Positions 3,646 to 46,100 of a stretch of 64,000 nucleotides of DNA are shown here, piece by piece. A program made the translations under genes and the position numbers. The first letter of the stretch is position 1; every line of letters begins with the position of its first letter. The DNA is taken from the NCBI RefSeq assembly GCF_009914755.1, contig NC_060942.1; one strand, 5' to 3'. The DNA comes from the human T2T-CHM13v2.0 reference genome, Homo sapiens. The notes under the pieces were generated by a model, which was not told where the DNA came from, searched no databases, and saw nothing but the letters and a program-made list of their open reading frames with translations.

Positions 3646-4059
3646 CTGTTTTTGGCTTTCTTCATCACTATTGCATCTCAGCACCTAGCATGGTGCCTAG
3701 CATGTCAGTAAATCACCAGTGAATATTTGGGGAATGAATGGATGACTGGAAGAGCATACTAAAGTGAGTAAAAGCTGTATTTTTTTCCTGATTTTTTTTT
3801 TTCCCAGAGACAAGGCCTCCCTCTGCCTCTCAGGCTAGAATGCAGCAGTGTCATCATACCTCTCTGCAGACTCGAACTCCCAGGCTCAAGCCATCCTCCA
3901 TCCTTGGCCTCCCAAAGTGCTGGGATTATAGGTGTGAGCCACTGAGCCTGGCCAGGAGCTTTAAAGTCAAATGTATCTGGCTCCCTGTAATCCCAGCACT
4001 TTGGGAGGCTGAGGAGGTGGGAGGATCACAAGGTCAGGAGATCGAGACCATCCTGGCTA

Positions 4060-4251
<192 letters not shown>

Positions 4252-5821
4252 TCAAAAAAAAAAAAAAAAAAGTATCTGGCTCAAGTTTCCAAATGTTTTC
4301 CACACAGTGATTTCTTTAATCTTCACAACAATCTTATAAGGTAGGTACTATTTTTGGCATAGTCTCCATCTTTCAGATAAGAAAACTGAAGTATAGAGAA
4401 ATTAAGTAACTCTCCCAAAGCCACACAGCAAGTGGAAGACCAGGACTAAAGACCAGGACTTAAGCCCAGGTGATGAACTGTGGCTGCAGTAGCTAGGTTA
4501 TTTTTATTTTTATTTTTATTTTTGAGACAGAATCTAGCTCCGTCGCCCAGGCTGGAGTGCAGTGACGTGATTTCAGCTCACTGCACCTCCGCCTCCCCAG
4601 TTCAAGCTATTCTCCTGCCTCAGCCATGCGAGCAGCTGGGACTACAGGCACGGGCCACCATGCCTGGTTAATTTTTGTATTTTTAGTAGAGACAGGGTTT
4701 CCTGATGTTGGCCAGGCTGGTCTCAAACTCCTGACCTCAAGTGATCTGCCTGCCTCAGCCTCCCAAAGTGCTGGGATTACAGGCGTGCGGCCCCATGCCC
4801 GGCCAGTAACTATGTGCTTAACACTGCACAGCTTCTCCAATGTACCAGCGTCTACCTAATAGGATTGTTACCGGGATTAAGTAACAGAATAGAATCAAAT
4901 GCTTCTATGCCAAAACAGCACTTGACCTATAATAAAGCATAATACATTTTTGCTCTTTTGTCATCCATAGTACTATCTTTTTATTATTGTTACATTTTGT
5001 GGCTTGTCTATAGCATTTGCCCTCTGTATATTAGTTTCAAAAGGCTTTAGTTGTCTATTTTTAAGTGGGTTTATGTAATAAAAAGTTATTTCTCCTTAAA
5101 GCATTCTTATTTTACATATGAAGTATTTGTCCTCACTAGATGAAATGTTATATACCTTGACTCCTGTTTCCATTCCATATGGACTTTAATAAAACAATAT
5201 TCTGAGAGATTTCCCCTTGTGATTGACATAACTCAAAATAGACCTCCATAGGGAAATACCTGCCACTTACAACCATGCCTTTTTCCTTGCGTAACAATGT
5301 GAATGTGCTTATTGCAACTGAACTGTCACACCTAAAAATGGTTAAAATGATATTTTACCGCACTAAAGCAATAACAGCAACAAAACAAAAACACATATTT
5401 TTCAAGTTTAAGTGGGCCTTAAAAGAGCAGGACTCTAGATCTATAAACATCTCTAGCAGAGATAAATTTTCCAAAGAGCTTAAAATGTTTTCGTACTGAA
5501 AAGATGCCAATATTATGTATATCCAGCAATTGTGTCCACTGATATTCTCTTGATAATACTTTATCTTTTCCTCATTTTTTCTTGCATTAAGAAATCAATA
5601 ACCCTCCCCCACCACACACACACAAAAGAAAAATGGGTAAAGGGCAAATTTCTGAAATATTATTAAATGTTTAAATATTTAGAAGTATTAAAATATGTGC
5701 AAGACTTTGCACAACTGTTCTTGTGAATTCAGCAAAGAAGAATTTCTTGGCCAGGCGCTGTGGCTCACGCCTGTAACCCCAGCACTTTGGGAGGCTGAGG
5801 TGGGCGGATCACTTGAGGTCA

Positions 5822-6103
<282 letters not shown>

Positions 6104-6413
6104 TCATAGTCAATGAATCATTCAATTAAATAAGCAATTACATGATCATTTCCTGTAGAGGCCGCTGCCATTCATTTCAAAATCATATCATATTGCTTTA
6201 GAAGAAAACTTTAAGATGATGTACTAAAATTATTCATTCAGAAACCAAAAATTGTTAAACACTTCCCCTCTATCTCATCACTTTTTTTTTTTTTTTTTTT
6301 TTTTGAGAAAGTGTCTTGCTCTGTTACTCCGGCTGGAATGCATTGGCATCATCATGTCTCACTATAAACTCAAACTCCTGGGCTCAAGCGATCCTCCCAC
6401 CTCAGGTTCCTGA

Positions 6414-27103: not shown

Positions 27104-28350
27104 TCAAAAAGAGAAGCAACCCTCACCTACCTTGAAGGAGACTCAGAAACGGCTGTGGAGGAAATTGGACTTGCTGCAGACAAGTAGGGTGGGAGTTTCA
27201 GCTGCTTTGTATAGGCTTTAAATAGACGTGTTCCCTTGGCCACATACACACACCCAAGTTCATACATATGCCCACAAGCATGTTGAAAGCTGGAGGACCC
27301 GGGGAACATTCAGGTTACTTTTGTTAAATACATGAACTACCATATATCCTGAATCTTAGAAGAGAAATGTATATAACCAGAAAATGATATTACCTTATAC
27401 TCAGACTGTCTTTGTGGGTGATGGGGGACAGTGATTGATAGTAAGTGAAGGGAAATGAAACCATACAAGTAACAGAACTGCAACTAGAGGGAAAATTATT
27501 TATTCAAGCCATATGTAAATATGTGCCTTTTTGAAAGTACAGCTTTGTCACTCCTAATGGTTTTAGACATCTGAGAGGGGCCCTGTGCTATAGCCCAGAG
27601 AGATCACTGTTTCGACCCGGGGAATTCAGGTTCTATTGACATTCATTTTTATAAGGAATACAGTAGATATCTGAGTAACAAAAAACAGTCTGTAATTATT
27701 TACATACATGAAATAATCCTGTTTGTATATTTGAAATAACTGCTATCTATTAACAGAAAGAAAATATTAGTATACAGTAGGTACATCCAGTCATAATGGG
27801 CAGTTTGACATTTCTGGAAGAGCCATCTGCAATAAAACAATAGTATTGTAAATATTTGCAAGACAATAATTAAACTCAGCACTGAGGTGAACTCCACACT
27901 GATTTTAGTTATTGTTTTTCTTCAGATTCTACAAAGAGTGAAGTACTCCAAAGAAATCTTTACATTCTAAAAAGATCTAGTTTTTATCATGATGCATTGT
28001 TTTAATACTCTAAAACTACTTGTCTGTGAGACTATGCTTTTTAGGAATGAATGTGATTCTGTTACTTCTAATGTGATGACAGTAACTCCTGGGTACATTT
28101 TAATCTTTGCAATATTTTAACTCAAAATAAAAACCATCCACTAGTGTGAAATATTTCAATGACATGATTCCAATACAGATTCAAGATGAAAACATCAGGT
28201 TTCCTTCAAAAGGAATTTTACTCTCCTTTTAGGAAATTGTGTAGGTATTTATATGAGTTAATTTTGAGAATTTTTAGCTAATCATACATTTATTCATCAG
28301 TAAGTGATTGAAATCGAGTCCTTTTAGACAAGGAAACCCAATTAAGATGG

Positions 28351-28803
28351 TGTGGTGGTTGAACTGGGTCCCCTCAAAAAACATATGTTGAAATCCTAAT
28401 CTCCAGAACCTCAGAATGTGACCTTATTTGGAAATAGGATCATTGAAGATCTAATTAGTTAACATGAGATCATACTGGAATGGGGAGGCCTCCTAATCCA
28501 CTATGATTGGTACAGGATGATAACCATGTGAAGACAGACACACACAGGAAGAATGTCATGTGACCATGTGACCACAGAGGTAGTGATTAGAGTTATGCAG
28601 CTACAAGCCAAGCACTGCTTGTGACACCAGAAACTAAGAGAAAGGCATGCACAGATTCTCCCTAGAGCTTTTGAGAGAGCATGGCCCTACCAACGCATTA
28701 ATTTCAGACTTCCAGCCTCCAGAAGTATGAGATGATAAATTCCTGTGTTCTGAAGCCACCCAGCTGTGATATTTTGCTATCACAACCCTGGGGAATAAAA
28801 ACA
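28351..28803 (+). mobile_element. MaLR LTR (MLT1B/C type)
   Basis: TGTGGTGGTTGAACTGGGTCCCC...CCTCAGAATGTGACCTTATTTGGAAATAGG...GACTTCCAGCCTCCAGAAGTATGAG. Confidence 0.85.
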
Positions 28804-29865
28804 GATGGGAACAGATGTACCCACCTGTCTTTGTGTCTATGACATAGTACAAAGGGCATAGGCTTTGGGGTCCAGCAGAAATGGAAATTAACCCCAACCC
28901 AGTCAATTCTTTCCTATGTGACTTTACACAGGGTAATTAGGGTAGCCGATTTCCTCAGCAACATGATAGAAATAAGATCTTCATAAGATACAGGCATGGT
29001 GGTGCATGCCTGTAATCCCAGCTATTCAGGAGGCTGAGGCAGGAGGATAATTTGAGCCCATGAGTTAGAGACCAACCTGAGCAACATAGCAAGACTCCAT
29101 CTCAAAAAAAAAAAAAAAAAAAAAAAAGATTGTTGAAGGCATCAATTGGTGATTGGTGAATATATGAAAGTTATGGGACACATAGTTTCTCAAAAAATAC
29201 TAATTTACAACCTGTATATATGAGCTCATTTAAGTAGTCCGTTAATATTATTTTATGTGGTCAAGGAAATTAAAAGCTTTTTTTTCTTTTCAATAATTAA
29301 AAAAAAAATAGTATCTATAAATCTGAACTTCTAGTGACCTGGATGTTCAGTAACATTTTTGTCAGTAATGATAAAAAAATGAATTATTCATAGTTAATGG
29401 GAAATAGACAACCATTTTATTTATGTGCTCTACAGTTCTGTTCAGTCAAAGAAACTCTAGTCCCCTGGTTTAAAGAACACTCTGGAAAGGAAGTGTCCCA
29501 CACAAGAGATGTGGTGGATGAAAACTCCCTATAAAAAGTTTATCCCTTTAATTATATGCTAAAAATATATATTTTTAGAAATAGTAAAATGATAGTCTTT
29601 CCAAGAGTACTGTAATGTGAATTATCCAACCTAATGACTCAGTTTAAAAGTCTGAATTATGTATTAGTCTCACTAGAAAGGGATAAAATTTGTCATTCAG
29701 TATGGGGGAATGACATATTATTTATGTGATCATCCTTCTGAGATCCCATTAAAATAATAGTAAAGAAATTAGGCTGGGCATGGTGGCTCATGCCTGTAAT
29801 CCCAGCACTTTGGGAGGCCTAGGCGGGTGGATCACGAGGTCAGGAGATCGAGACCATCCTGGCTA

Positions 29866-30108
<243 letters not shown>

Positions 30109-30227
30109 TCAATTAAGAGAAAAGAAAGATCTAATGATGATCACCGATCATCATCAGTGATCTAAATCTTTCAATAAACTTCTAGAAGACAGAGCAGGAA
30201 GTGATAACTAGAGAAACACAGTGGAGG

Positions 30228-31072
<845 letters not shown>

Positions 31073-31659
31073 AAGGGAATTTCAGCCAGAAGGATGCATG
31101 GAGAGACCATATCTGTGAAGGAAGCCAATCTGCCTGCAGGACCCAATGTGCAAGGGCTCAGAAAATTCACTTCCCGCATTATCTTTTCTTTGCAAATTAA
31201 TTGGCAATGTGCCTCAACAATACAAAAGAGTAAAGCAAGGAAAAGACACGAGGATCCAGGAAACAGTGGTTTCAAATGAGGTAAGTAATTAAGGGAAGTC
31301 CCTGGGTGATAGCTGTGTAGCAGATCAAGGCAGCAAGCAACAAAGGCCTTAGGAGGAAGTTATCTTGAGGAAAAAAGAGAGTTGAGTATTTTTCAAAATC
31401 TTACACTAACTTTGAGATTTTGTAATAATAGAAAGATACCAACAATACACAAATAAAAAGAAAGATAGGAGAACAAGTAGAAAGCCACCTTATTAGGATA
31501 ATTTGACTGCAAGCAGCAGGAAAACCAAACCCAAAACGCTTAAAAATAAGACATTTACTATCTGACATAACAAGAGCTTCATAGGCAGGGAAGCTTCAGT
31601 TGACTGGTTAATTCAGTATCTGATTCTTCAAGTGCATAGGTTCTTTACATTTCTCTTTT

Positions 31660-32235
<576 letters not shown>

Positions 32236-33231
32236 CTACATCTTTCTTTCTGCCATCTTCACTCATCCAAAGGCAGGCTCCCCTCACGGTGACAAGATGT
32301 ACATGCTCTTTTAGGGTTCATATCCAACATGGCAGAATCCCAAGAAAAATACTCTATCTCCCTTAGAGAAAGGAAAACTTTCCAGAAGCCCCTAGTAGGC
32401 ATTTTCTCCCATCTCATTGGCTAAAATTGTATCCTGTGCACATCTGAACAACTACTGGAAAAGAAAATGGAACCACTGCAGCAGGGATTGTTAATTGCCC
32501 CTCAATATCCATCTCCCCCTCCTTCCTTTCTATGATAGAACTTCTCTGAATTGTATCTCCACACGTAATCACCAAGCTAGAAGCAACTTTTCCCATCCTC
32601 CCTTGCACCTAGGTGTGGTCATGTTACTACGTTCTGGCCAATAGGATATGAGTGGAAATGATGTGGGCAATTTGTAAATTTTTCTTTAAAAGAAGTTGTG
32701 TGCTCTCCACTGGCTCAATTCCTCCATTCTGGCTAATATGAAGATTTGGTGGTAGTAGGTCAGCTTCAAACATGAAGATGAGGGCAGCTCCCAAGGAGAT
32801 GACAGAGCCATGGGTAGAAGGAGCCTGGGGACCCAGGACATTTTCTTGATGCTCAGCCTCTCTATCCTCTTACACTGTAGGCTAGCTAGGAATTCTATCT
32901 GACAGAGAGGTCCACTCTATTTATTTTGGTGACTATTAAAGTAGTGGCAGGGGCCAGGCGTGGGCTCATGCCTGTAATCTCAGCACTTTGGGAGGCTGAA
33001 GCAGGCAGATCACTTGAGGTCAGGAGTTTGAGACCAGCCTGGTCAACATGGTGAAACCCCATCTCTACTAAAAATACAAAAATTAGCCAGGTGTGGTGAC
33101 AGGCGCCTGTAATCCCAGCTCTCAAGAAGCTGAGACATGAGAATCGCTTGAACCTGAGAGATAAAGGTTGCAGTGAGCCAAGATTGTGCCATTGCACTCC
33201 ATCTTAGGTGACACAGTGAGACTCTGTCTCA

Positions 33232-33639
<408 letters not shown>

Positions 33640-33644
33640 TTAGA

Positions 33645-33782
33645 CCAATGGTTCTCAAAGTATGATTACCATACTGAGAGCACCAGCATCACCCAGGAAC
33701 TTGTTGGAAATGTACATTCTTGGGTCTTGCCCCAGACCTACTGAATTGGAATGTCTGTGAATGGATCCCAGCAACCTGTTTT
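33645..33782 (+). mobile_element. MER5-type (hAT-Charlie) MITE fragment
   Basis: CAATGGTTCTCAAAGT...CAGCATCACCCAGGAACTTGTTGGAAATG...CCCAGACCTACTGAAT. Confidence 0.7.
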
Positions 33783-34105
33783 TTGTTTTGTTTGTTTTGT
33801 TTGAAACAAAGTGAGACCCTGTCTCAAAATAAATAAATAAAAGAAAAGAAAAAAGAAACTTAAAAAGAGAAGAGATGTAAGAAAATGGGAAGAGATAAAG
33901 TCAATAGGCGACATCATGAGAAATGAAGGTGCTAATTTAAAATCATAAATGCAAGGAAAGAGGAATTCAAAATAAGAACATAATTCTATTATTAGAAGGG
34001 GCTGGGTAAATGTGCATTAAATCTTCATTTTGCATAAAAAGAAAGTCAATAGATAGTTCCCGAAAATACTATATTAAGGCCAAACAAGGTGGTGCATGCC
34101 TCTAA

Positions 34106-34363
<258 letters not shown>

Positions 34364-34590
34364 TAGAGATGGGGTTTCACCATGTTGGCCAAGTTGGTCT
34401 CGAACTCCTGACCTCAGGTTATCCGCCCACCTCAGCCTCCCAAAGTGCTGGGATTACAGGCGTGAGCCACCGGGCCCAGCCAAAAAAATTATTATTATTT
34501 TTTAAATTAACCAGGCGTGATGATGGACGCTTGTAACCTCTCATCAGGCTTAGGTGGGAAGATGGATTGAGCTCAAGAATCTCAAAGTCA

Positions 34591-35075
<485 letters not shown>

Positions 35076-35991
35076 CTAGTTAAAAAGAATTTTCCCTTTG
35101 GGATGGGGACTGTGAGAGGAGAGCTATTGATTTTCATTATAAATCCTTCTGTACTATTTAATTTTTTTTTAACCTAGGGCATATATGCTTATAATGAACC
35201 ATTGAAAAATTATGCTTTCAGAGGGGCTATACACAAGGTGGGACAGAGTCCTCCCGCTCTGAGAGTCTCTTTGTGAAGGTCTGCTTTGTCCAGGAGGGGG
35301 TCACCAGAATGTTTGCAGAGCCTCCGCCAGCCCTGTCTCATGAGGCAGCTTTACAAATGGTCGGATGGGACAGGGTCTCTGACAAAAGGCCCTCTCCTCA
35401 TTGGCATAATCCTTTAGACAGCTGTACCGGGTGAATGGGAACCGCTCAGAGCAGTCTGTTGGCAGGCTTGCTGCTGTCACCTCTTGTAGAATTTCCTCTC
35501 GACCACCCTGCTCTCTCGTTCAGATGTCCAACACACAGCCTTAATGGGTAATGGATGTTTTCACCTGGAGAATCCTCCTCATTAGCCTCTCAGTTCTGAC
35601 CAGGAGGCTGAATGTTCACAACATGGAAAGTCATAATATTTCAACAATCATTGGCCCCAAAGCACTTGTTCAAACAGTAATAGTAGTTAGTATGTTGTAA
35701 GAAGATCAGTTAAACCATGTCTATGTCTTTACATTTAGCTGGTATGTTTCCTCCTACCATACTGTCCTGTTTGTGATTTACTCTGTACCCAAAAGCTGAT
35801 GTCAGACTCTCTGCTTTCAACACCAAGTAATTATGGGTGGAAATGGGGGAGGTTGAAGTGGTTTGGGAGTGGAGTGACATGTAAGGTAATAGCTTTCAGA
35901 TCATTTCCGGTGGCGCTTTGGTGTGCTACAAAGATACTTTCATTGAAATGTCCCAGGGATTGGTCCGGACCCTGGATCTTACCTCACTTGA

Positions 35992-36198
<207 letters not shown>

Positions 36199-36320
36199 TA
36201 GTAGAGATGGGGTTTTGCCATGTTGGCCAGTCTGGTCTGGAACTCCTGACCTCAAGTGATCTGCCCACCTCGGCCTCCCAAATTGCTGGGATTACAGGTG
36301 TGAGCCTCCGTGCCTGGCCA

Positions 36321-36716
36321 GCCCACTTAATCTTAAATGCAGTCTTTCACTTCATACAACACACAGGAGATAGGATGCAGCAAGTTAGAAAAATTACTCA
36401 TACCACCTCCCAGATGTGCAAAGAATTTAGAGTGCATTTTCCCTATGCTTGCTCATTTAGAAGCACATCTGCTCCTCTTCACCTCCCAGGTAGCAGGGGA
36501 AAGGCTAGATTTAATCTTGTTACAATATTTCCATTTCTTCTCATTGATACAGGCTTGTTTCAGTGTAAACATTTGGTCCATTTGAAGTTCAACTTCCCAC
36601 TAGTGCTAATGAAAATCTTTACCTGGTTGAGTAAATGTTTTCAGGTAAAATACTCTATCTCTCAAATTTAGTCTCCTCTTCCTCTTCCTTGACCTGGTAG
36701 AAAGGGCAGGACTTAC
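36321..36716 (-). repeat. Left arm of an inverted duplication (396 bp)
   Basis: Reverse complement of 37632-38036, with about 7 substitutions and one 9-bp indel. ORFs 36207..36671(+) and 37677..38081(-) share a nearly identical translation. Confidence 0.97.
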
Positions 36717-37289
36717 TATATCCTTGTGATGCCTGTAGGATAAAAGGGTTCCTGAGTGGTATGTTGTCTCAGGCCTCCTCTGGTCTCAGAGGCAATGCCC
36801 CATGCCTGCCTGATTACTGTTTGCTCTGCTGCTGTTGGGGGGTGAAATTTGCTGCTGGGATCATTCGTGGCTTGGTCAGTGCCCAGTGGGCTGTCTTCAG
36901 TAAAGTCACTCCCTCTGAGCCTATGCCACAACCCCCACCAAAACTCTCCCCCGTTGGAGCCACACAAGCTCCTGCTGTCAAGCCCTCTCGCTCTTGCCCT
37001 CTGGGGACCCAAAAGGCCCCTGGTCCTCAAGTCAGCCACCTCTGTGTCTTCCTCCATCCAAAAGACCTGCAGGAGCTTCTGAGCCTGGTGACACTTGCTG
37101 GGGACCAAGACCATCCTACTCCGCCCCAGCCACGCTGCATGACCTCATCTCAGCCCAAAAACAGACATTGGGAACATCTGACCATCCATCCCGTTCCCCC
37201 GCTCTTTTTGGCTACCTGCAGTGACCCCAGCAGCAGGGGCGGGAGTTGCCTGCCCTCTTCCAGCCTGGAAGAGCATCTGTCCTACGCTC

Positions 37290-37631
37290 CTCCTTCCGGG
37301 AGTGACTCCCGCCCGCATCTCGGGGTGGGAAGGGTTCAGGAAACACAGACCAGCTTATCTTAAGGAAGCCTGGTCGGGAATCTTTCAAAAACACATCTGT
37401 TACAAGGGGGAAAGACACCTCCAGGACAACAGTGATTTGCCTCAGCGGGGCAAAGGCCAGGCCTGACGGAAGAGCCCAGCCTTCGCCGAGGGCCGCAGGG
37501 AGCCAGAGACTCGAGCCTGCGGTTCCAGCCCCGCCGCGGTTCCGGCCCCGCCGCGATCCCGAGGCCTGCGCATGCTCGGTGCTGCGCGGGGCTCCCTCCT
37601 TACCGCAGGAGCTCCTCATCGAGAAACCCAG
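37290..37631 (+). promoter_or_regulatory. TGIF1: Small CpG-rich promoter and non-coding first exon ending at a strong 5' splice site; probably the distal TGIF1 promoter
   Basis: The only CpG-dense non-Alu stretch in the window. It has a GC box (CCCGCCC ~37308), an ETS-like TTCCGG (~37540), an NRF1-like TGCGCATGCTCG (37567-37578) and a consensus donor CAG|GTAAGT at 37631/37632. The gene assignment rests on recalled locus order, not on coding sequence in this window. Confidence 0.65.
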
Positions 37632-38036
37632 GTAAGTCCTGCCCCTTCTACCAGGTCAAGGAAGAGGAAGAGGAGACTAAATTTGAGAGATAGAGTATTT
37701 TACCTGAAAACATTTACTCAACCAGGTAAAGATTTTCATTATTTTCATTAGCACTAGTGGGAAGCTGAACTTCAAATGGACCACATGTTTACACTGAAAC
37801 AAGCCTGTATCAATGAGAAGAAATGGAAATATTGTAACAAGATTAAATCTAGCCTTTCCCCTGCTACCTGGGAGGTGAAGAGGAGCAGGTGCGCTTCTAA
37901 ACGAGCACGCATAGGGAAAATGCACTCTAAATTCTTTGCACATCTGGGAGGTGGTATGAGTAATTTTTCTAACTTGCTGCATCCTATCTCCTGTGTGTTG
38001 TATGAAGTGAAAGACTGCATTTAAGATTAAGTGGGC
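37632..38036 (+). repeat. Right arm of the inverted duplication (405 bp); the first 405 nt of the putative intron
   Basis: Begins GTAAGTCCTGCCCCTTCTACCAGG and ends TTAAGATTAAGTGGGC. It contains an extra tandem ATTTTCATT at ~37732-37749. Confidence 0.97.
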
Positions 38037-40420
38037 CCCCAGGACCTGGCACAGGCTGTGGTTCCTTATATCGAGTGGCATGACTGCATTCCGGCCTTTG
38101 CCGTTGACTCATTCTTTGCCCTTGTCAAGTTTCCTAGCCTGAGTCGGTTTTTCCCCTTCTCGTTAGAGCTGATGATAAAACAGACTTACCTAGCCAGGGC
38201 AACACAGGGAGACCCTGTCTCTACAAAAAATAAGAAAATAAAATATTAGCCGAGTGTGGCGTCACACGCCTGTAGTCCTATCTACTTGGGAAGCTGAGAC
38301 AGGAGGATCTCTTGAGCTCAGGAGTTCAAGACTGCAGTGAGCTGTGATGGCGTCACTGCACTCCAGCCTGGGCGACAAAACGAGGCTCTGTCCCCAAACA
38401 CCAAAAACCTCACAAGGCTCTTCCAGGTATGAGATAATATATTGAATGTCCCTTGGTGAATTCAGAAATGCTGGGGATAAAATATATGTAAATCTCAAAT
38501 ACATCCGGATTATTAATAGTGTAATGTCTACAAAGAAATGCTCATTGTCTCGCTAGCATTCTTTTATTTAATAGAGTAAAAAAGAATGAGGATTTTTAAA
38601 AAATTAAATTCACGGAACTGTTTTTATGTTAAAGGATGGGAACATGGCTTATGAATATTTTTATTCTTCTTGGCCCTGCCCTTGTACAATAAAGTTTGCT
38701 AACTACCATTATCTCATTTGCCACTCATTAATCCAGAGAGATTTATTTAGAATCATTAAAGTTTCTCACCCCAAAATCAGGTTGAGATTTGATTCGAATT
38801 TTATTAAACCTGACATCTTTATAATATTGAAACTTTCAGGAAAATGATAGTTTCCTTTGCTTATTCGAGTTGTTATTTTTCTCTGAGTAGATTTTGGAGT
38901 TCTCTTCATAGAGTCTAGTATTCTTTATAAAGATTATTCTTGAGAATTTTATAAGGTTTTTTTTTGGCCTGGACGGTGGCCAACGCCTGTAATCCTAGCA
39001 CTTTGGGATGCCAAGGCGGGAGGATCACTTGAACTCGGGAGTTCAAGACCAGCGTGGGCAACACAGGGAGACCTCGTCTCTATAATTTTTTCAATTAAAA
39101 CAAATTTTTTTTCTGATTACAAATGAGACTTTTCTCTCCTTCATGGTTTTAACTGTTTATAGAAGATATATCGTCAAGGGAATTATTTTTACAAATTCAT
39201 TCTATGGCTGCCGTAATAAAAATAACAAGAGTGATACAAAAAGTACAGTTGTATCTTAAAGTATTGAGCAGTTGCCAAATGGCAGGCACTATGTCGTGGG
39301 TTTTAAATGTATTTTCTCAGCAAATCTTCACAATAATCCTATAAATTAATTATAGTTATTATCCTAATGTGTAGATGAAAAAACAAGCCCAGTGAGATGA
39401 CGTAATTTGCCTAAGGTCACAGAGTTCATTACTAAGCACTAATTAATTCTCTTAGGTTTTCTAGATACACAATCGTATCATTTATACAAAAGGACAGTTT
39501 TGTCTCCTCTTCCCAAGGCTGTGTGTCCAATTTTTGTTCTACACTTTACTGAACTGGTCATAATTATATTACAATGTTAAGTAATTATTCTCACTTAAAT
39601 ACTTCTAAACCCTTTTCCATTCAGTGGATATGAGTATATGATGCTGCAGTCAATGGAAATAATGATCACAATAATCCCTAACACTTACTGTGAACCCAGG
39701 CAGTCTGAGTCTAGAATTGATATTCTCATTTACACAACTAATTCAAGAGCTACTGCACCTTATTATAGCATGTTCCAGGCCACTCTAGCATGATCCACAT
39801 GTTTCAAACCTTCTCCACCACCTCCCTTCAGTTTTCTGGCTTTGTAGCCAGAGTTCATCTCTAAGTCTAGCCCCAGTTGGGTTGGTGATCCTGTTTACCG
39901 TGAATCTAATCTTGTACTTTCTTATGACATACTTCTAGTAACGGTCCCTTGGCTCTACCCAGTGAACTTAAAGAGGTGACCCATCTGTGTCCTCTCTAGA
40001 CCTCAGAACCCCATCCTATTTAAGTCCAGTTTCCTTTTACCAACAGATGAAGTCTCTCTCAACATTCCTTTCAAATATCTTTGAAAACAGAAAATAAGGA
40101 ATTTCAAGAATTTTTTTTCATCAAAACCCCATAATATTCTATGCCAGCATGGTGGTGCACAGCTGTAGTCCAAGCTACTCTGAGGCTGAGATCAGAGGAT
40201 CACTTGAACCAGGAGTTCAAGGCCAGCCTGGGAAAAGTAAAGAGACCTCTCCTCCCCATGTCTCTAAAAAATAAAAATATTGAAAGACCCAATGTCCAAT
40301 GTCAGAAAGATCAAGGAGAAAGTGATACTTTTCTACACTACACTTCTAAATTCTTTCTAAAGGGCAATTTGACAATGCATGTAAAAAATTTTGCATATTC
40401 CTTGACTCAGAAATCTTACT

Positions 40421-42377
<1,957 letters not shown>

Positions 42378-42486
42378 AGAAATCTCACTCGGAATTTATC
42401 ATAAGTAAATCATTATGGATAAGCAAAAATATATTTTTATAAAGATGTTTATTTAAATACTATTTATAGTGGTTAAAATTTTGTAG

Positions 42487-42843
<357 letters not shown>

Positions 42844-43189
42844 TAAATAAATTCTACTACATCCAGAGAAATATTTCATTACATGGAAACGTTCATGATA
42901 CACTGTTAGATTAAAAAAGTATATCACAACTCAACATGTAAAGTATAATCCCATTTGTATTTATATAACTATATCTATTTTTGTCTATATAACTGTTATT
43001 GTAAATTTAGCTACCTATTCGTGTATATATCTATCATTGAGATCACACAAAACAAAAATAGATATTTCCAAATATTCATTTCTTAAAAATGGAATTATTA
43101 AGAAATATGTTATATTTCTTCTTTCTGTTCACTGTTTTCTGAATTTTCTACAATTGACATATATCACTTTTGGAATAGTAAAACGGTTA

Positions 43190-43348
<159 letters not shown>

Positions 43349-43519
43349 TTAGTTAAGCTAAAAGCAGAGATACAAAAAATATAGGGCTTACATATGATCG
43401 AAGTTGGTTTTTTTTTTTCCTCTCCCCAAATTGTCTATCGGTGAAGGGCCCAGTGTTACAATGAAGCTGTACTCCACAAAGTTACTCAGGGGTCCTGATT
43501 TTGTGCTGCTGTTATCTAG

Positions 43520-43592
43520 GTTGGTGTCTTTTCCACGTGGTAGAAGCTGGCTAACCTCCACTTCCACATTCCAGCCCAAGGGAAAGTCCAAG
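43520..43592 (+). other. Candidate 73-nt internal non-coding (5' UTR) exon within MLT1-like LTR sequence
   Basis: Acceptor TTTTGTGCTGCTGTTATCTAG|G and consensus donor AAG|GTAAGT, with no ATG inside. It is on the same strand as the donor at 37631. Confidence 0.55.
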
Positions 43593-43733
43593 GTAAGTAG
43601 ATATTTCTTTAAGGGGGATGACCTGGAAGTTGCACACTTCATTTTCACTCACCATTGGCTTGAACCTAGTCATGTGACCACATCAGTCAAGAAGGCAGGC
43701 TGCGATCTATAGTCTCCAGCTGTCAGCCATGTA

Positions 43734-44039
43734 CAGTTGTCCCTTGGTATCCATGGGGGATTGGTTCCAGGATGCTACCTCAGAAATTAAAATGTGCAAA
43801 TGCTCAAGTTCATTATATAAAATGGCATAGTATTTGCATATAACCTGTGCATACCCACCTGCATACTTGTAATCATCTTTAGATTACTTATAATATCTAA
43901 TACAATGTGAATGCTATATAAATAGTTGTTATACTGTATTATTCAGTACAGATGCAACTATAGTAGGCCTAACTACATTTTCTATCCACAGTTGGTTGAA
44001 TCTGCACATACAGAACCCATGGAAACCCAGGGCCAACTG
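43734..44039. mobile_element. MER2 (TcMar-Tigger) MITE
   Basis: Terminal inverted repeats CAGTTGTCCCTTGGTATCCATGGG ... CCCATGGAAACCCAGGGCCAACTG, preceded by TA. Confidence 0.88.
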
Positions 44040-44133
44040 TGTGTGTGTGTGTGTATTCAGCTAAAATTTAGGGGGAAAGGATTATTACTAAAGATGAGTA
44101 GGAATAGTGAGAGATGGACTCATTGGACTCTTA

Positions 44134-44325
<192 letters not shown>

Positions 44326-44328
44326 TCA

Positions 44329-44433
<105 letters not shown>

Positions 44434-45272
44434 TCAAAAAAAATTTAAAAATAAATAAAAATGTACAATAGTTATAATACTGTGATTCTGGCACAGGAAT
44501 AAATAAAAAGATTAGGACAACCATAAATACACTGGAATTCATATAAGATTAAAGCATATAAGTTAAGATGGAGGAAAATAAACTCAATAATGTTGAGAGA
44601 ATTGGAAAACCATTTGGAAAAAACAAAGTTAGATTAAATGACAAAATTCATTCCACATAAAAACTTAACTTTCTGTAGGGAAATATAGATGAAAATGGCA
44701 ACCAGATTATGACCCCTGCTTTAGTTGGTCCCCCATTCGACAGATTTCTGGACCTTATTGAGAATAATTATCTTTTCCTTGACCTTCAGCAACCAGAACT
44801 GCAAACCATACACCACATATAGAAGACACCACGCTTGTATTGGGTCAGGAGAATGCTTTTTATTTTTGTGTGTTTGTTGGTTAGTTGGTTGGTTAGTTGG
44901 TTTTTTCTATCCTTTCTTTTGAAGCAGTCTTTTTTATGTTGATCTTCTTTTTGTTGATCTTCTTTATTGATAGATAAAATGTACAAAACTAATAATCCAC
45001 ATAATGACTTCTAATTTCCATCACTGGACTACCCTTGGTGTGTATCTGATTCTATATGCTCCATATAAAAATTAGTCTCCAACTCAACAAGAAAAAAGCA
45101 GGCTGGGCACGGTGGCTCACGCCTGTAATCCCAGCACTGTGGGAGGCCAAGGCGAGTGGATCACCTGAGGTCAGGTGTTCAAGACCAGCCTGGCCAACAT
45201 AGCAAAACCCCTCCTCTACTAAAAATACAAAAATTAGCTGGGCATGGTGGTGCCTGCCTGTAATCCCAGCTA

Positions 45273-45380
<108 letters not shown>

Positions 45381-45464
45381 TCAAAAAAAAAAGGAAAAAG
45401 AAAAAAGGAAAATAACCTGATTTAAACACGGGTTTGTAATCATGTAAATGCTCAATTAAAATCA

Positions 45465-45611
<147 letters not shown>

Positions 45612-45859
45612 TCATGCTTGATGGTGGGTGCCTGTCATCCCAGCTACTCAGAGGAGGCTGAGGCAGAAGAATCACTTGAATCCAGGAGGTGGAGTTTGCA
45701 GTGAGCCAAGATCGCGCCACTGCACTCCAGCCTGGGCAACAGAGTGAGACTCCCTCTCAAAAAAAAAATAATATTAATAAAACCAAACAAGAAAGAAAAA
45801 GAGTGGAAAACAAAAAGGAAACAAAGAATAAGAGCAATGAAATAAAATAAACTACAATT

Positions 45860-46100
45860 AAGGTACATGTTAATCCAACTATATCAATGATCACTTTAAA
45901 TGTGAATGATCTAAATACATTAATTAAAAGACAGAGACTATCAGAGTGGATAAAATAACATCACCCAACTATACGTTGTTTACAAGAAACTCACTTTAAA
46001 TATGCAGGCACAGGTGAAAAGTAAAAGGATGAATACAGAGATGCCACACTAACACTAATCAAAAGAAAGCTATGGTAGCTATGTTAATTTCAGACAAATT
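45860..46100 (+). mobile_element. L1 fragment, start of ORF2 (endonuclease region)
   Basis: TATCAATGATCACTTTAAATGTGAATGATCTAAA...CAGAGTGGATAAAA...CCCAACTATACGTTGTTTACAAGAAACTCAC translates as SMITLNVN..L..IKR..W...CLQETH. Confidence 0.8.

What the first reader, a model, noticed from the sequence alone, without database searches (positions are those of the whole stretch)
36321..38036. Promoter/first-exon cassette bracketed by ~400-bp inverted repeats: a potentially invertible promoter
Seen: 36321-36716 and 37632-38036 are ~98% identical reverse complements of apparently non-repetitive DNA. They enclose a 915-bp spacer holding the only CpG-rich promoter and first exon in the window. Established: inverted repeats of a few hundred bp at high identity can mediate NAHR inversions and inter-arm gene conversion. 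Inference: flipping the spacer would point the promoter and exon away from the downstream gene (probably TGIF1) while leaving both flanks essentially unchanged. This would be a switch-like regulatory allele that short reads would largely miss.
Basis: partly seen in the sequence, partly recalled or inferred. Interest (0 to 1): 0.82.

Follow-up and report, generated by a model that had tools for sequence, protein, structure and literature searches.

The report
Inverted duplication bracketing distal TGIF1 promoter
A roughly 400-base piece of the first intron of a distal TGIF1 transcript was copied backwards to just upstream of that transcript's promoter, so the promoter and first exon sit between mirror-image repeats that could in principle flip them, though nothing here shows that they do.

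Summary
Arms 36321-36716 (396 bp) and 37632-38036 (405 bp) are reverse complements that differ by 7 substitutions and one 9-bp tandem duplication. They enclose exactly 915 bp. The arm sequence occurs only twice in the whole CHM13 assembly, so it is not an interspersed repeat.

New here: an old copy on chr12 is colinear with window 37387-37631 | 39375-39399 | 40423-43107. Its homology starts at the annotated TSS and breaks exactly at the annotated exon end (CAG|GTAAGT...AG|). It therefore looks like a processed copy of a transcript from this promoter. That makes the exon/right-arm junction ancient (K about 0.10-0.19), the right arm ancestral and the left arm a young inverted copy (K about 0.018).

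The layout matches the F8 int1h inversion at small scale: one repeat in intron 1, one upstream of the promoter. The GTAAGT donor lies inside the arm, so the exon would keep a perfect donor in either orientation.

Whether the cassette flips is untested. Only one haplotype was available. The longest perfect identity tract is 128 bp. Five inversion catalogues (held text only) listed nothing at the locus.

Most likely this is a fixed, neutral young micro-duplication and a weak NAHR substrate.

The parts
36007..36320 (-). Alu element whose head abuts the outer end of the left arm; no target-site duplication found
   Evidence: SRP/Alu-like Rfam matches at 36026-36173 and 36202-36318 on the minus strand. 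Alu-Alu BLAST matches. Poly-T at 36007-36027 read. The 31 nt left of the poly-T share no word longer than 7 nt with 36301-38300 on either strand.
36321..36716 (-). Left arm (396 bp): inferred derived, inverted copy of the first 396 bp of the intron after the distal TGIF1 exon; 0 CpG
   Evidence: CpG count. Derived status inferred from the chr12 copy.
36711..36716 (-). Mirror-image 5' splice-site hexamer GTAAGT on the minus strand (context ATA|GTAAGTCCT), facing away from the spacer
   Evidence: on the minus strand of 36000-38500, GTRAGT occurs only at 36716 and 38189.
36717..37631 (+). 915-bp spacer, the cassette that an inter-arm crossover would flip; unique in the assembly apart from the exon part
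   Evidence: GC 0.59, 35 CpG. No AATAAA/ATTAAA on either strand; GC boxes at 37121, 37237, 37309; GCGCATGC at 37568.
37351..37700 (.). CpG-rich stretch (GC 0.60, o/e 0.71, 22 CpG), the largest in the window; overlaps the first 69 bp of the right arm
   Evidence: composition profile (GC 0.70 at 37400-37599).
37386..37631 (+). Annotated distal first exon of TGIF1 transcripts (GC 0.66, CpG o/e 0.78); contains a 17-bp tandem repeat at 37519-37555
   Evidence: Hub annotation table.. The chr12 homology spans 37387-37631.
37632..38036 (+). Right arm (405 bp): the start of the intron and the inferred ancestral copy; begins with the donor GTAAGT (context CAG|GTAAGTCCT); 3 CpG
   Evidence: Ancestral status inferred.
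37732..37750 (+). 9-bp unit present twice in the right arm and once in the left arm; the only indel between the arms
39375..39399 (+). 25-nt segment preceded by AG that is joined directly to the exon end in the chr12 copy (old splice acceptor)
   Evidence: 27-nt match, 96%. One further genomic match (79%, 69 bp) runs across 39399/39400.
40423..43107 (+). Rest of the stretch colinear with the chr12 copy (BOD1P1 and its 3' flank), interrupted here by three Alus that chr12 lacks

Best explanation
This is a young, local inverted duplication and not a repeat family.

Origin: the first ~396 bp of the intron that follows the distal TGIF1 first exon (now the right arm) was copied in reverse orientation to a site 915 bp upstream. 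There it lies between the head of an older Alu and the promoter region (now the left arm). The most likely route is a replication template switch or break repair (inferred, not shown).

Consequence: the distal CpG promoter and first exon lie between a repeat in intron 1 and its mirror copy upstream of the promoter. This is the topology of the F8 int1h inversion at about 1/150 of the scale.

Most likely state today: the duplication is fixed, sits in the TGIF1-directed orientation, and has no selected function. It is a possible but inefficient substrate for homologous recombination that would flip the cassette. Because the donor GTAAGT is part of the repeat, the exon keeps a consensus donor in either orientation, and the promoter's antisense side now also faces a GTAAGT.

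Shown: the repeat, its copy number, the exact boundaries, and the chr12 colinearity. Inferred: which arm is derived, the age, the mechanism of origin, and the absence of flipping.
For: (1) The arms are 389 of 396 identical plus one 9-bp indel, and the spacer is 915 bp.

(2) Only two copies exist in the 3.1-Gb assembly, both here. The outer right flank is unique. The spacer is unique except for its exon part.

(3) The chr12 locus (G000:C12:48489907 onward) is colinear with window 37387-37631 (74%), 39373/5-39399 (96%), 40419/23-41640 (80%), 41901-42013 (88%), 42332-42491 (83%) and 42839-43107 (82%).
- Its homology begins 1 nt from the annotated exon start.
- Its first gap runs from exactly the annotated exon end (CAG|GTAAGT) to an AG at 39373-39374.
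- It contains no arm sequence.
- This is what a processed copy of a spliced transcript from this promoter would look like. The exon|right-arm junction is therefore as old as that copy.

(4) K2P distance is 0.10-0.19 for chr12 against chr18 and 0.018 between the arms (0.010 without CpG sites). Three Alus in chr18 and one Alu with an 11-nt target duplication in chr12 are private to each copy. The arm duplication is thus roughly tenfold younger than the junction.

(5) All 7 substitutions are A/T in the left arm and G/C in the right. All three CpGs of the right arm are lost in the left, which has 0 CpG. This fits decay or error-prone synthesis in a derived left copy that lies further from the CpG-rich stretch.

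(6) The Alu next to the left arm has no detectable target-site duplication on that side, as expected if a rearrangement breakpoint lies at its head.

(7) The longest perfect tract between the arms is 128 bp. The arms are shorter than the 654 bp-24.2 kb IRs of validated NAHR inversions.
Against: The processed-copy reading is not clean.
- The second gap (39400-40422) has no GT-AG at its ends.
- No target-site duplication flanks the chr12 copy: 1828 of 2000 shuffles reach the best flank alignment score.
- Its 3' end is only an A-rich stretch, not a clear poly(A) tail.
- A DNA-level duplication with two deletions cannot be excluded. It would need two boundaries to coincide with the annotated exon ends by chance.

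The polarity of the 7 differences was not tested against an outgroup. With n=7 the asymmetry is suggestive only, and 4 of the 7 lie within 20 bp (P about 0.011 under uniform placement), so they may not be independent events.

Ages assume no inter-arm gene conversion.

'Fixed and not flipping' rests on one haplotype plus negative, incomplete catalogue searches. A high ratio of IR length to inverted length (about 0.44 here) correlates positively with the frequency of NAHR inversions (Giner-Delgado 2019, passage), which argues for flipping, not against it.
Confidence: 0.6

Rival explanations
1. One reading: the cassette actually toggles. Homologous recombination between the arms has produced both orientations in human (or ape) populations. 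The result would be a switch-like allele in which the distal promoter and exon either feed TGIF1 or point upstream.
For: The geometry is right. The arms are 98.2% identical and only 915 bp apart, and a high ratio of IR length to inverted length goes with higher inversion frequency among NAHR inversions. A 1041-bp IR pair in the same topology (intron 1 and upstream of the gene) recurrently inverts F8 exon 1 (passages read in PMC8776779). The donor hexamer lies inside the arm, so a flipped exon would still be spliceable. IR-flanked inversions are poorly detected by short reads (Giner-Delgado 2019, passages).
Against: No second haplotype could be examined. CHM13 carries the TGIF1-directed orientation, and the hub table places the annotated exon there on the + strand. 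There is no entry at chr18:3.410-3.412 Mb and none under TGIF1 in the held supplement text of:
- PMC12229492 (lists only inversions overlapping genes);
- PMC6748972 (12 of 18 files searched);
- PMC13721702;
- PMC12350169 (2 of 3 files searched; file 1 is an unreadable PDF, and file 2 was cut when stored);
- PMC6467913.
The main text of the Porubsky preprint has 0 mentions of chr18 or TGIF1, and its supplements are closed. The arms are shorter than any IR in the validated NAHR set (654 bp minimum), and the maximum perfect tract is 128 bp.
Confidence: 0.15
2. The duplication is much older than 1.8% divergence suggests, and the arms have been kept alike by repeated inter-arm gene conversion (concerted evolution). 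This is compatible with either the fixed or the toggling reading.
For: The differences are unevenly spread: identical tracts of 128, 104 and 96 bp, with 4 of 7 substitutions inside 20 bp (P about 0.011). Closely spaced inverted repeats are known to convert each other (general knowledge, recalled).
Against: The cluster coincides with the three CpG sites, so mutation hotspots explain it without conversion. All 7 differences have the same W/S polarity, whereas patchy conversion in both directions would tend to mix it. There are no outgroup data.
Confidence: 0.15
3. The duplication has a transcript-level effect instead of, or besides, a DNA-level one. It places a copy of the strong donor GTAAGT and the first ~400 nt of intron on the antisense side of a CpG promoter, which could stabilise and splice upstream antisense transcripts. 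Any read-through RNA spanning both arms would form a ~390-bp double-stranded stem.
For: GTRAGT occurs at 37632 (+) and its mirror at 36716 (-), and at only one other place in 36000-38500, 38189 on the minus strand. Neither strand of the spacer has AATAAA/ATTAAA. In a fold of 36321-38036 as RNA, 390 of 396 left-arm bases pair with the right arm, and the stem contributes about -730 kcal/mol. The role of U1 sites in promoter directionality is recalled knowledge.
Against: The hub table lists no minus-strand or upstream transcript in this stretch; TGIF1 starts at 37386, so no annotated RNA contains both arms. The antisense donor context ATA|GTAAGT is weaker than CAG|GTAAGT. No expression data were available.
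Confidence: 0.1
4. The arms are two independent copies of a known interspersed repeat (or the terminal inverted repeats of an old DNA transposon), or the structure is an assembly artefact.
For: No repeat-family library (Dfam/RepeatMasker) could be run, and the genome search states that it is not exhaustive for repeats.
Against: Only 2 candidates were found genome-wide, and both are the arms themselves. Neighbouring Alu fragments, by contrast, return dozens of hits with the same tool. 98.2% identity is far higher than old human DNA transposons retain (recalled). The right arm sits at an intron start that the chr12 copy shows to be ancient. The arms differ at 7 sites and one indel, so they are distinguishable sequences and not a collapsed or mirrored assembly of one copy.
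Confidence: 0.03

Closest known systems
F8 intron-1 inversion (int1h-1 / int1h-2) causing severe haemophilia A
   Same: The topology is the same: one repeat copy in intron 1, its inverted partner upstream of the gene. Recombination between them turns the promoter and exon 1 away from the rest of the gene (PMC8776779, passages read). Here the right arm starts at the first base of the intron and the left arm lies upstream of the promoter.
   Different: The int1h repeats are 1041 bp with one mismatch and lie 140 kb apart. Here the arms are 396/405 bp with 7 mismatches and one indel, 915 bp apart. The F8 inversion is observed in patients, whereas no inverted haplotype is known here. The F8 promoter is the gene's only one; according to the hub table this exon belongs to non-selected TGIF1 transcripts.
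Validated human polymorphic inversions mediated by inverted repeats (InvFEST HsInv set; Aguado 2014, Giner-Delgado 2019)
   Same: A unique segment is flanked by >90% identical inverted repeats. Some of these inversions exchange first exons; for example HsInv0241 exchanges exon 1 of AQP12A and AQP12B (PMC3961182, passage). The ratio of IR length to inverted length predicts frequency (PMC6748972).
   Different: Their IRs range from 654 bp to 24.2 kb, and the IR-mediated inversions in Aguado 2014 span 5.1-226 kb. Here the arms are shorter and the inverted segment is under 1 kb. Both orientations were demonstrated for that set and not for this one. 'chr18' has 0 occurrences in the 12 of 18 Giner-Delgado supplement files searched and in the main text of Aguado 2014.
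Bacterial invertible promoters (e.g. the fim switch, Bacteroides invertons); recalled, not tested
   Same: A promoter lies between inverted repeats, and its orientation decides which flanking gene is transcribed.
   Different: Those use short repeats and a dedicated site-specific recombinase, and they switch at high frequency within a clone. Here any flip would depend on general homologous recombination between ~400-bp repeats, in the germline, at a far lower expected rate.
Local inverted duplications made by replication template switching (FoSTeS/MMBIR)
   Same: A nearby segment is copied in reverse orientation with no other copy in the genome. The breakpoint lies at a repeat edge, and the substitutions cluster in one copy. 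Giner-Delgado 2019 invokes FoSTeS/MMBIR for complex non-homologous inversions.
   Different: The mechanism is therefore assigned by exclusion.

Membership tests
NAHR-mediated polymorphic inversion | A pair of inverted, highly identical non-allelic repeats flanking the segment | tested here: met
   396/405-bp arms, 389 of 396 identical, 915-bp spacer.
NAHR-mediated polymorphic inversion | Both orientations observed among haplotypes or species | not testable with these tools
   Only CHM13 is held (no relatives). Catalogue text searches were negative but incomplete. Scans of genome contigs and viral contigs for a spacer 23-mer gave 0 hits.
NAHR-mediated polymorphic inversion | Repeat length and uninterrupted identity in the range known to support NAHR | tested here: not met
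   Arms are 396-405 bp and the longest perfect tract is 128 bp. The validated set has IRs of 654 bp-24.2 kb. This lowers the expected rate but does not exclude it.
Segmental duplication (UCSC definition) | At least 90% identity and at least 1 kb, not made only of interspersed repeats | tested here: not met
   The identity criterion is met (98.2%) and the length is not (396-405 bp). The definition is given partly in PMC13629690 (minimum 90% identity, inverted SDs of 1-50 kb selected); the 1-kb floor is otherwise recalled. The pair would therefore be absent from SD tracks.
Interspersed repeat / DNA transposon with terminal inverted repeats | Many dispersed copies in the genome | tested here: not met
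   2 of 2 candidates are the arms themselves, and the right flank finds 1 of 1, itself. No repeat-family library was available, so very old diverged copies could be missed.
Processed (retro)copy of a spliced transcript (the chr12 locus used as evidence) | Copy starts at the transcription start and lacks introns at GT-AG boundaries | tested here: inconclusive
   The start lies 1 nt from the annotated exon start. Gap 1 runs exactly from the annotated exon end to an AG, with GT...AG. Gap 2 (39400-40422) has no GT-AG.
Processed (retro)copy of a spliced transcript (the chr12 locus used as evidence) | Poly(A) tail and target-site duplication | tested here: not met
   Only an A-rich stretch follows the end of homology. 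The best flank alignment is 5 nt, reached by 1828 of 2000 shuffles. At 15-20% divergence, loss of these marks is expected.

The most novel reading that the evidence does not exclude
The 915-bp cassette is a recurrently toggling micro-inversion in humans and/or African apes. The distal TGIF1 CpG promoter and first exon would exist in two germline orientations. Each keeps a consensus CAG|GTAAGT donor because the donor is part of the repeat. One orientation feeds TGIF1, and the other drives a spliced upstream transcript and silences distal-promoter TGIF1 isoforms. Short-read and SD-based catalogues would not see this allele.
Probability: 0.12. Interest if true: 0.7.

Novelty: new member of a known kind. 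Interest (0 to 1): 0.4.

Why it matters
TGIF1 is a dosage-sensitive developmental regulator (its role as a holoprosencephaly gene is recalled, not checked here). A promoter and first-exon cassette between near-identical inverted repeats is the same architecture that breaks F8 in haemophilia A.

If the cassette flips, it would be a sub-kilobase regulatory inversion. That class falls below the size and repeat-length thresholds of current inversion catalogues: SD tracks start at 1 kb, and the validated IRs start at 654 bp.

Even if it is fixed, the locus is a tidy natural experiment. A datable inverted duplication has given a CpG promoter the same strong 5' splice site and the same first 400 nt of intron on both sides.

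The chr12 copy independently shows that this distal exon and its donor have been in use for a long time.

Tried and rejected
- **Extension of the repeat beyond the arms.** None exists; all other matches are Alu-Alu.
- **Target-site duplication of the Alu next to the left arm.** None found.
- **Rfam families in 35500-39500.** Only sub-threshold Alu/SRP-like matches and Alu-derived miRNA look-alikes outside the arms, plus one weak sub-threshold match in the spacer.
- **Repeat-family origin of the gaps missing from chr12.** Only Alu-like fragments at about 38947-39113 and 40131-40280 are multi-copy. My impression that 39375-39450 is a MIR element is recalled. The genome search gave a single extra match (79%, 69 bp) that spans 39399/39400.
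- **Coding capacity of the BOD1-like copies.** Neither chr12 nor chr18 has an intact BOD1-length frame.
- **Target-site duplication of the chr12 copy.** Not found.
- **Literature searches.** 'TGIF1' + 'inversion' + 'inverted repeats' gave 0 papers. 'TGIF1' + 'polymorphic inversion' gave 1 paper that I judged irrelevant from its title and abstract only. 'BOD1P1' gave 0 papers. The TGIF1 alternative-promoter search listed 15 papers, none of which contains TGIF1.
- **Inversion catalogues.** See the rival explanation on toggling. The Porubsky Cell paper and Ebert 2021 are not held, bioRxiv supplements are closed, and one supplement file was cut when stored. An entry could therefore exist unseen.
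- **Stray human contigs.** Scans of genome contigs and viral contigs for a contig carrying the spacer gave 0 and 0.
Full report
**1. The observation**

The inverted repeat is real and sits at the stated coordinates.
- The repeat finder returns it as two collinear pieces: 36321-36616 with 37741-38036 (296 nt, 98%) and 36607-36716 with 37632-37741 (110 nt, 99%).
- A global alignment of 36321-36716 against the reverse complement of 37632-38036 shows 389 of 396 aligned positions identical. There are 7 substitutions (5 transitions, 2 transversions) and a single 9-bp insertion in the right arm.
- TRF identifies that insertion as a second tandem copy of a 9-mer at 37732-37750.
- The spacer is 36717-37631, 915 bp.
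- A sensitive BLAST of 28000-37631 against 36717-46000 finds no continuation of the repeat beyond the arms. Everything else is Alu against Alu.

**2. Not a repeat family, not an artefact**

- Searched against the whole 3.1-Gb assembly that the window comes from, the left arm has two candidates, both scored: itself and the right arm.
- The 164 bp outside the right arm match only themselves.
- With the same tool, neighbouring Alu fragments return dozens of matches. The tool does see repeats, although it warns that its counts are lower bounds.
- No Rfam family matches in the arms at E<=1. The spacer has one weak sub-threshold match (HOTAIRM1_3, 37324-37351, E 0.51), and the flanking matches are Alu/SRP-like.
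- The arms differ at 7 sites and one indel, so they are two distinguishable sequences.
- I could not run a repeat-family library.

**3. What lies inside and beside the repeat**

- The spacer is GC-rich (0.59). Its right-hand third is the largest CpG-rich stretch of the window: 37351-37700, GC 0.60, CpG o/e 0.71, 22 CpG.
- Five smaller windows elsewhere also pass the thresholds. 'The only CpG-rich stretch' is therefore slightly too strong.
- According to the hub's annotation table, 37386-37631 is an exon of non-selected TGIF1 transcripts and marks the start of the gene span.
- The exon ends CAG and the right arm begins GTAAGT. The exon/intron boundary and the spacer/arm boundary are thus the same base.
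- Consequently the left arm ends, on the minus strand, with the same GTAAGT in the context ATA|GTAAGTCCT.
- Within 36000-38500, GTRAGT occurs on the plus strand only at 37632, and on the minus strand only at 36716 and 38189.
- Neither strand of the spacer contains AATAAA or ATTAAA.
- The left arm's outer end abuts the head of a minus-strand Alu (36007-36320). I found no target-site duplication for that Alu.

**4. An unexpected witness on chr12**

The spacer's only other match in the genome is on contig 12, at 77% identity, and it covers just the exon part. Following it up shows that the chr12 locus is colinear with these window segments:

| Window segment | Identity |
|---|---|
| 37387-37631 | 74% |
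| 39373/5-39399 | 96% over 27 nt |
| 40419/23-41640 (the BOD1P1 pseudogene) | 80% |
| 41901-42013 | 88% |
| 42332-42491 | 83% |
| 42839-43107 | 82% |

- Homology starts one base from the annotated exon start.
- The first gap runs from exactly the annotated exon end (followed by GTAAGT) to an AG at 39373-39374. chr12 reads ...GAGAAACCCAG|ATGAAAA....
- chr12 contains no arm sequence.
- Three Alus interrupt the chr18 side and one Alu (with an 11-nt target duplication) interrupts the chr12 side. All four are private to their copy.
- After the end of homology, chr12 has an A-rich stretch.

The simplest reading is that chr12 carries an old processed copy of a transcript. That transcript started at this promoter, was spliced at this donor, and ran through BOD1P1.

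Points against this reading:
- The second gap (39400-40422) has no GT-AG ends.
- There is no detectable target-site duplication.
- There is no clean poly(A) tail.

One other genomic match (79%, 69 bp) runs across 39399/39400. This suggests that the chr18 arrangement is the original and that the chr12 junction is derived. Both BOD1-like copies lack an intact frame.

**5. What this says about the arms**

- If the exon already ended at 37631 and used a donor there when the chr12 copy was made, the junction between the spacer and the right arm is ancient.
- The K2P distance between chr12 and chr18 is 0.10-0.19 across the five segments. Between the two arms it is 0.018, or 0.010 without CpG sites.
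- The arm duplication is therefore roughly ten times younger than the junction. The right arm is the source and the left arm is the inverted copy.
- With human-chimpanzee divergence at about 1.2% (recalled), 1.0-1.8% between the arms places the event near or somewhat before the human-chimpanzee split, if no gene conversion has acted.
- All 7 differences are A/T in the left arm and G/C in the right. The three CpGs of the right arm are all lost in the left, which has no CpG at all.
- Four of the seven differences lie within 20 bp (P about 0.011 under uniform placement).
- This pattern fits CpG decay, or error-prone synthesis, in a derived left copy that lies about 640 bp from the CpG-rich stretch. 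The right arm overlaps that stretch.
- Without an outgroup this polarity is an inference.

**6. How it most likely arose and what it does**

- A single nearby segment was copied in reverse, there is no other copy in the genome, and one breakpoint lies at an Alu edge. This points to a local template switch or break-repair event (inferred). I saw no junction microhomology in the sequence.
- The product has the topology of the F8 int1h pair: one repeat in intron 1 and its inverted partner upstream of the promoter. Recombination between the F8 repeats displaces exon 1. Those repeats are 1041 bp with one mismatch and lie 140 kb apart (PMC8776779, passages read).
- Here the arms are 396/405 bp and the perfect-identity tracts are 128, 104 and 96 bp and shorter.
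- In the best-genotyped human set, the 24 NAHR inversions have IRs of 654 bp-24.2 kb (PMC6748972, passage read). By that measure this pair is a weak substrate.
- The same paper reports that a high ratio of IR length to inverted length goes with higher inversion frequency. That ratio is high here (about 0.44).
- I therefore regard flipping as possible but probably rare. I put about 0.15 on both orientations existing in present-day humans.

**7. Transcript-level consequences (inferred)**

- The exon would keep CAG|GTAAGT in either orientation.
- In the present orientation, any antisense transcription from the CpG promoter meets ATA|GTAAGT followed by the same ~400 nt that follow the sense exon.
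- An RNA spanning both arms would pair 390 of 396 left-arm bases with the right arm. The hub table lists no such transcript.

**8. Search for prior knowledge**

- No paper in the held library combines TGIF1 with 'inversion' and 'inverted repeats'.
- TGIF1 with 'polymorphic inversion' gave one paper, judged irrelevant from its title and abstract only.
- 'BOD1P1' gave 0 papers.
- I searched the held supplement text of five inversion or SV papers for coordinates beginning 3410, 3411 or 3412, for TGIF1, and in four of the five also for 'chr18-341...' IDs. PMC6748972 was searched instead for 'chr18', 'TGIF1' and '18p11'. No inversion at the locus was found in any of them:
  - PMC12229492 (lists only gene-overlapping inversions);
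  - PMC6748972 (12 of 18 files searched);
  - PMC13721702;
  - PMC12350169 (2 of 3 files searched; one file cut when stored);
  - PMC6467913.
- The main texts of the Porubsky preprint and of PMC13629690 do not mention chr18 or TGIF1.
- The Porubsky Cell paper and Ebert 2021 are not held, and bioRxiv supplements are closed. The largest long-read inversion lists were therefore not seen.
- SD-based candidate sets start at 1 kb and would not include this pair.

**9. Verdict**

No evidence of inversion exists, and the arms are short.
- The best explanation is a young, probably fixed, probably neutral inverted micro-duplication of the intron start, placed upstream of the distal TGIF1 promoter.
- It is a new member of a known kind: an IR-flanked promoter/exon-1 cassette, like F8 int1h.
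- A look at existing long-read human and ape assemblies would settle the open question in minutes.

Noticed in passing
L005 (G000:C12:48486000-48495900) 3908-6245; window 37387-43107: chr12 carries an old, colinear copy of the TGIF1 distal exon joined to a 25-nt segment and to the BOD1P1 pseudogene with its 3' flank. It appears to be a processed copy of a chimeric TGIF1-distal-exon/BOD1P1 transcript. Neither BOD1-like copy has an intact reading frame.
   Followed up: yes
window 38231-38426: The second annotated TGIF1 exon in the window lies almost wholly inside a plus-strand Alu fragment (SRP/Alu-like match 38249-38396; direct-repeat families D1 and D2). It is therefore an Alu-derived exon.
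   Followed up: partly
window 37519-37555: A 17-bp GC-rich unit (GCGGTTCCAGCCCCGCC) is present in 2.2 tandem copies inside the distal first exon. The chr12 copy aligns poorly across this stretch.
   Followed up: no
window 36007-36320: Minus-strand Alu with a 21-nt poly-T but no recognisable target-site duplication. Its head coincides with the outer breakpoint of the left arm.
   Followed up: partly
window 39400-40422: A 1023-bp stretch is present in chr18 and absent from the chr12 copy, with no GT-AG at its ends. Only an Alu-like fragment at about 40131-40280 within it is multi-copy. Whether this is a non-canonical intron or a later deletion in chr12 is unexplained.
   Followed up: partly
G000:C18:57350295-57351448, C18:5293472-5295362, C3:114856689-114857147, C5:174147587-174148356: Further BOD1-like matches (76-83%) appeared when the chr12 locus was searched against the assembly. 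I presume these are the parent gene on contig 5 and other retrocopies, two of them also on chr18.
   Followed up: no
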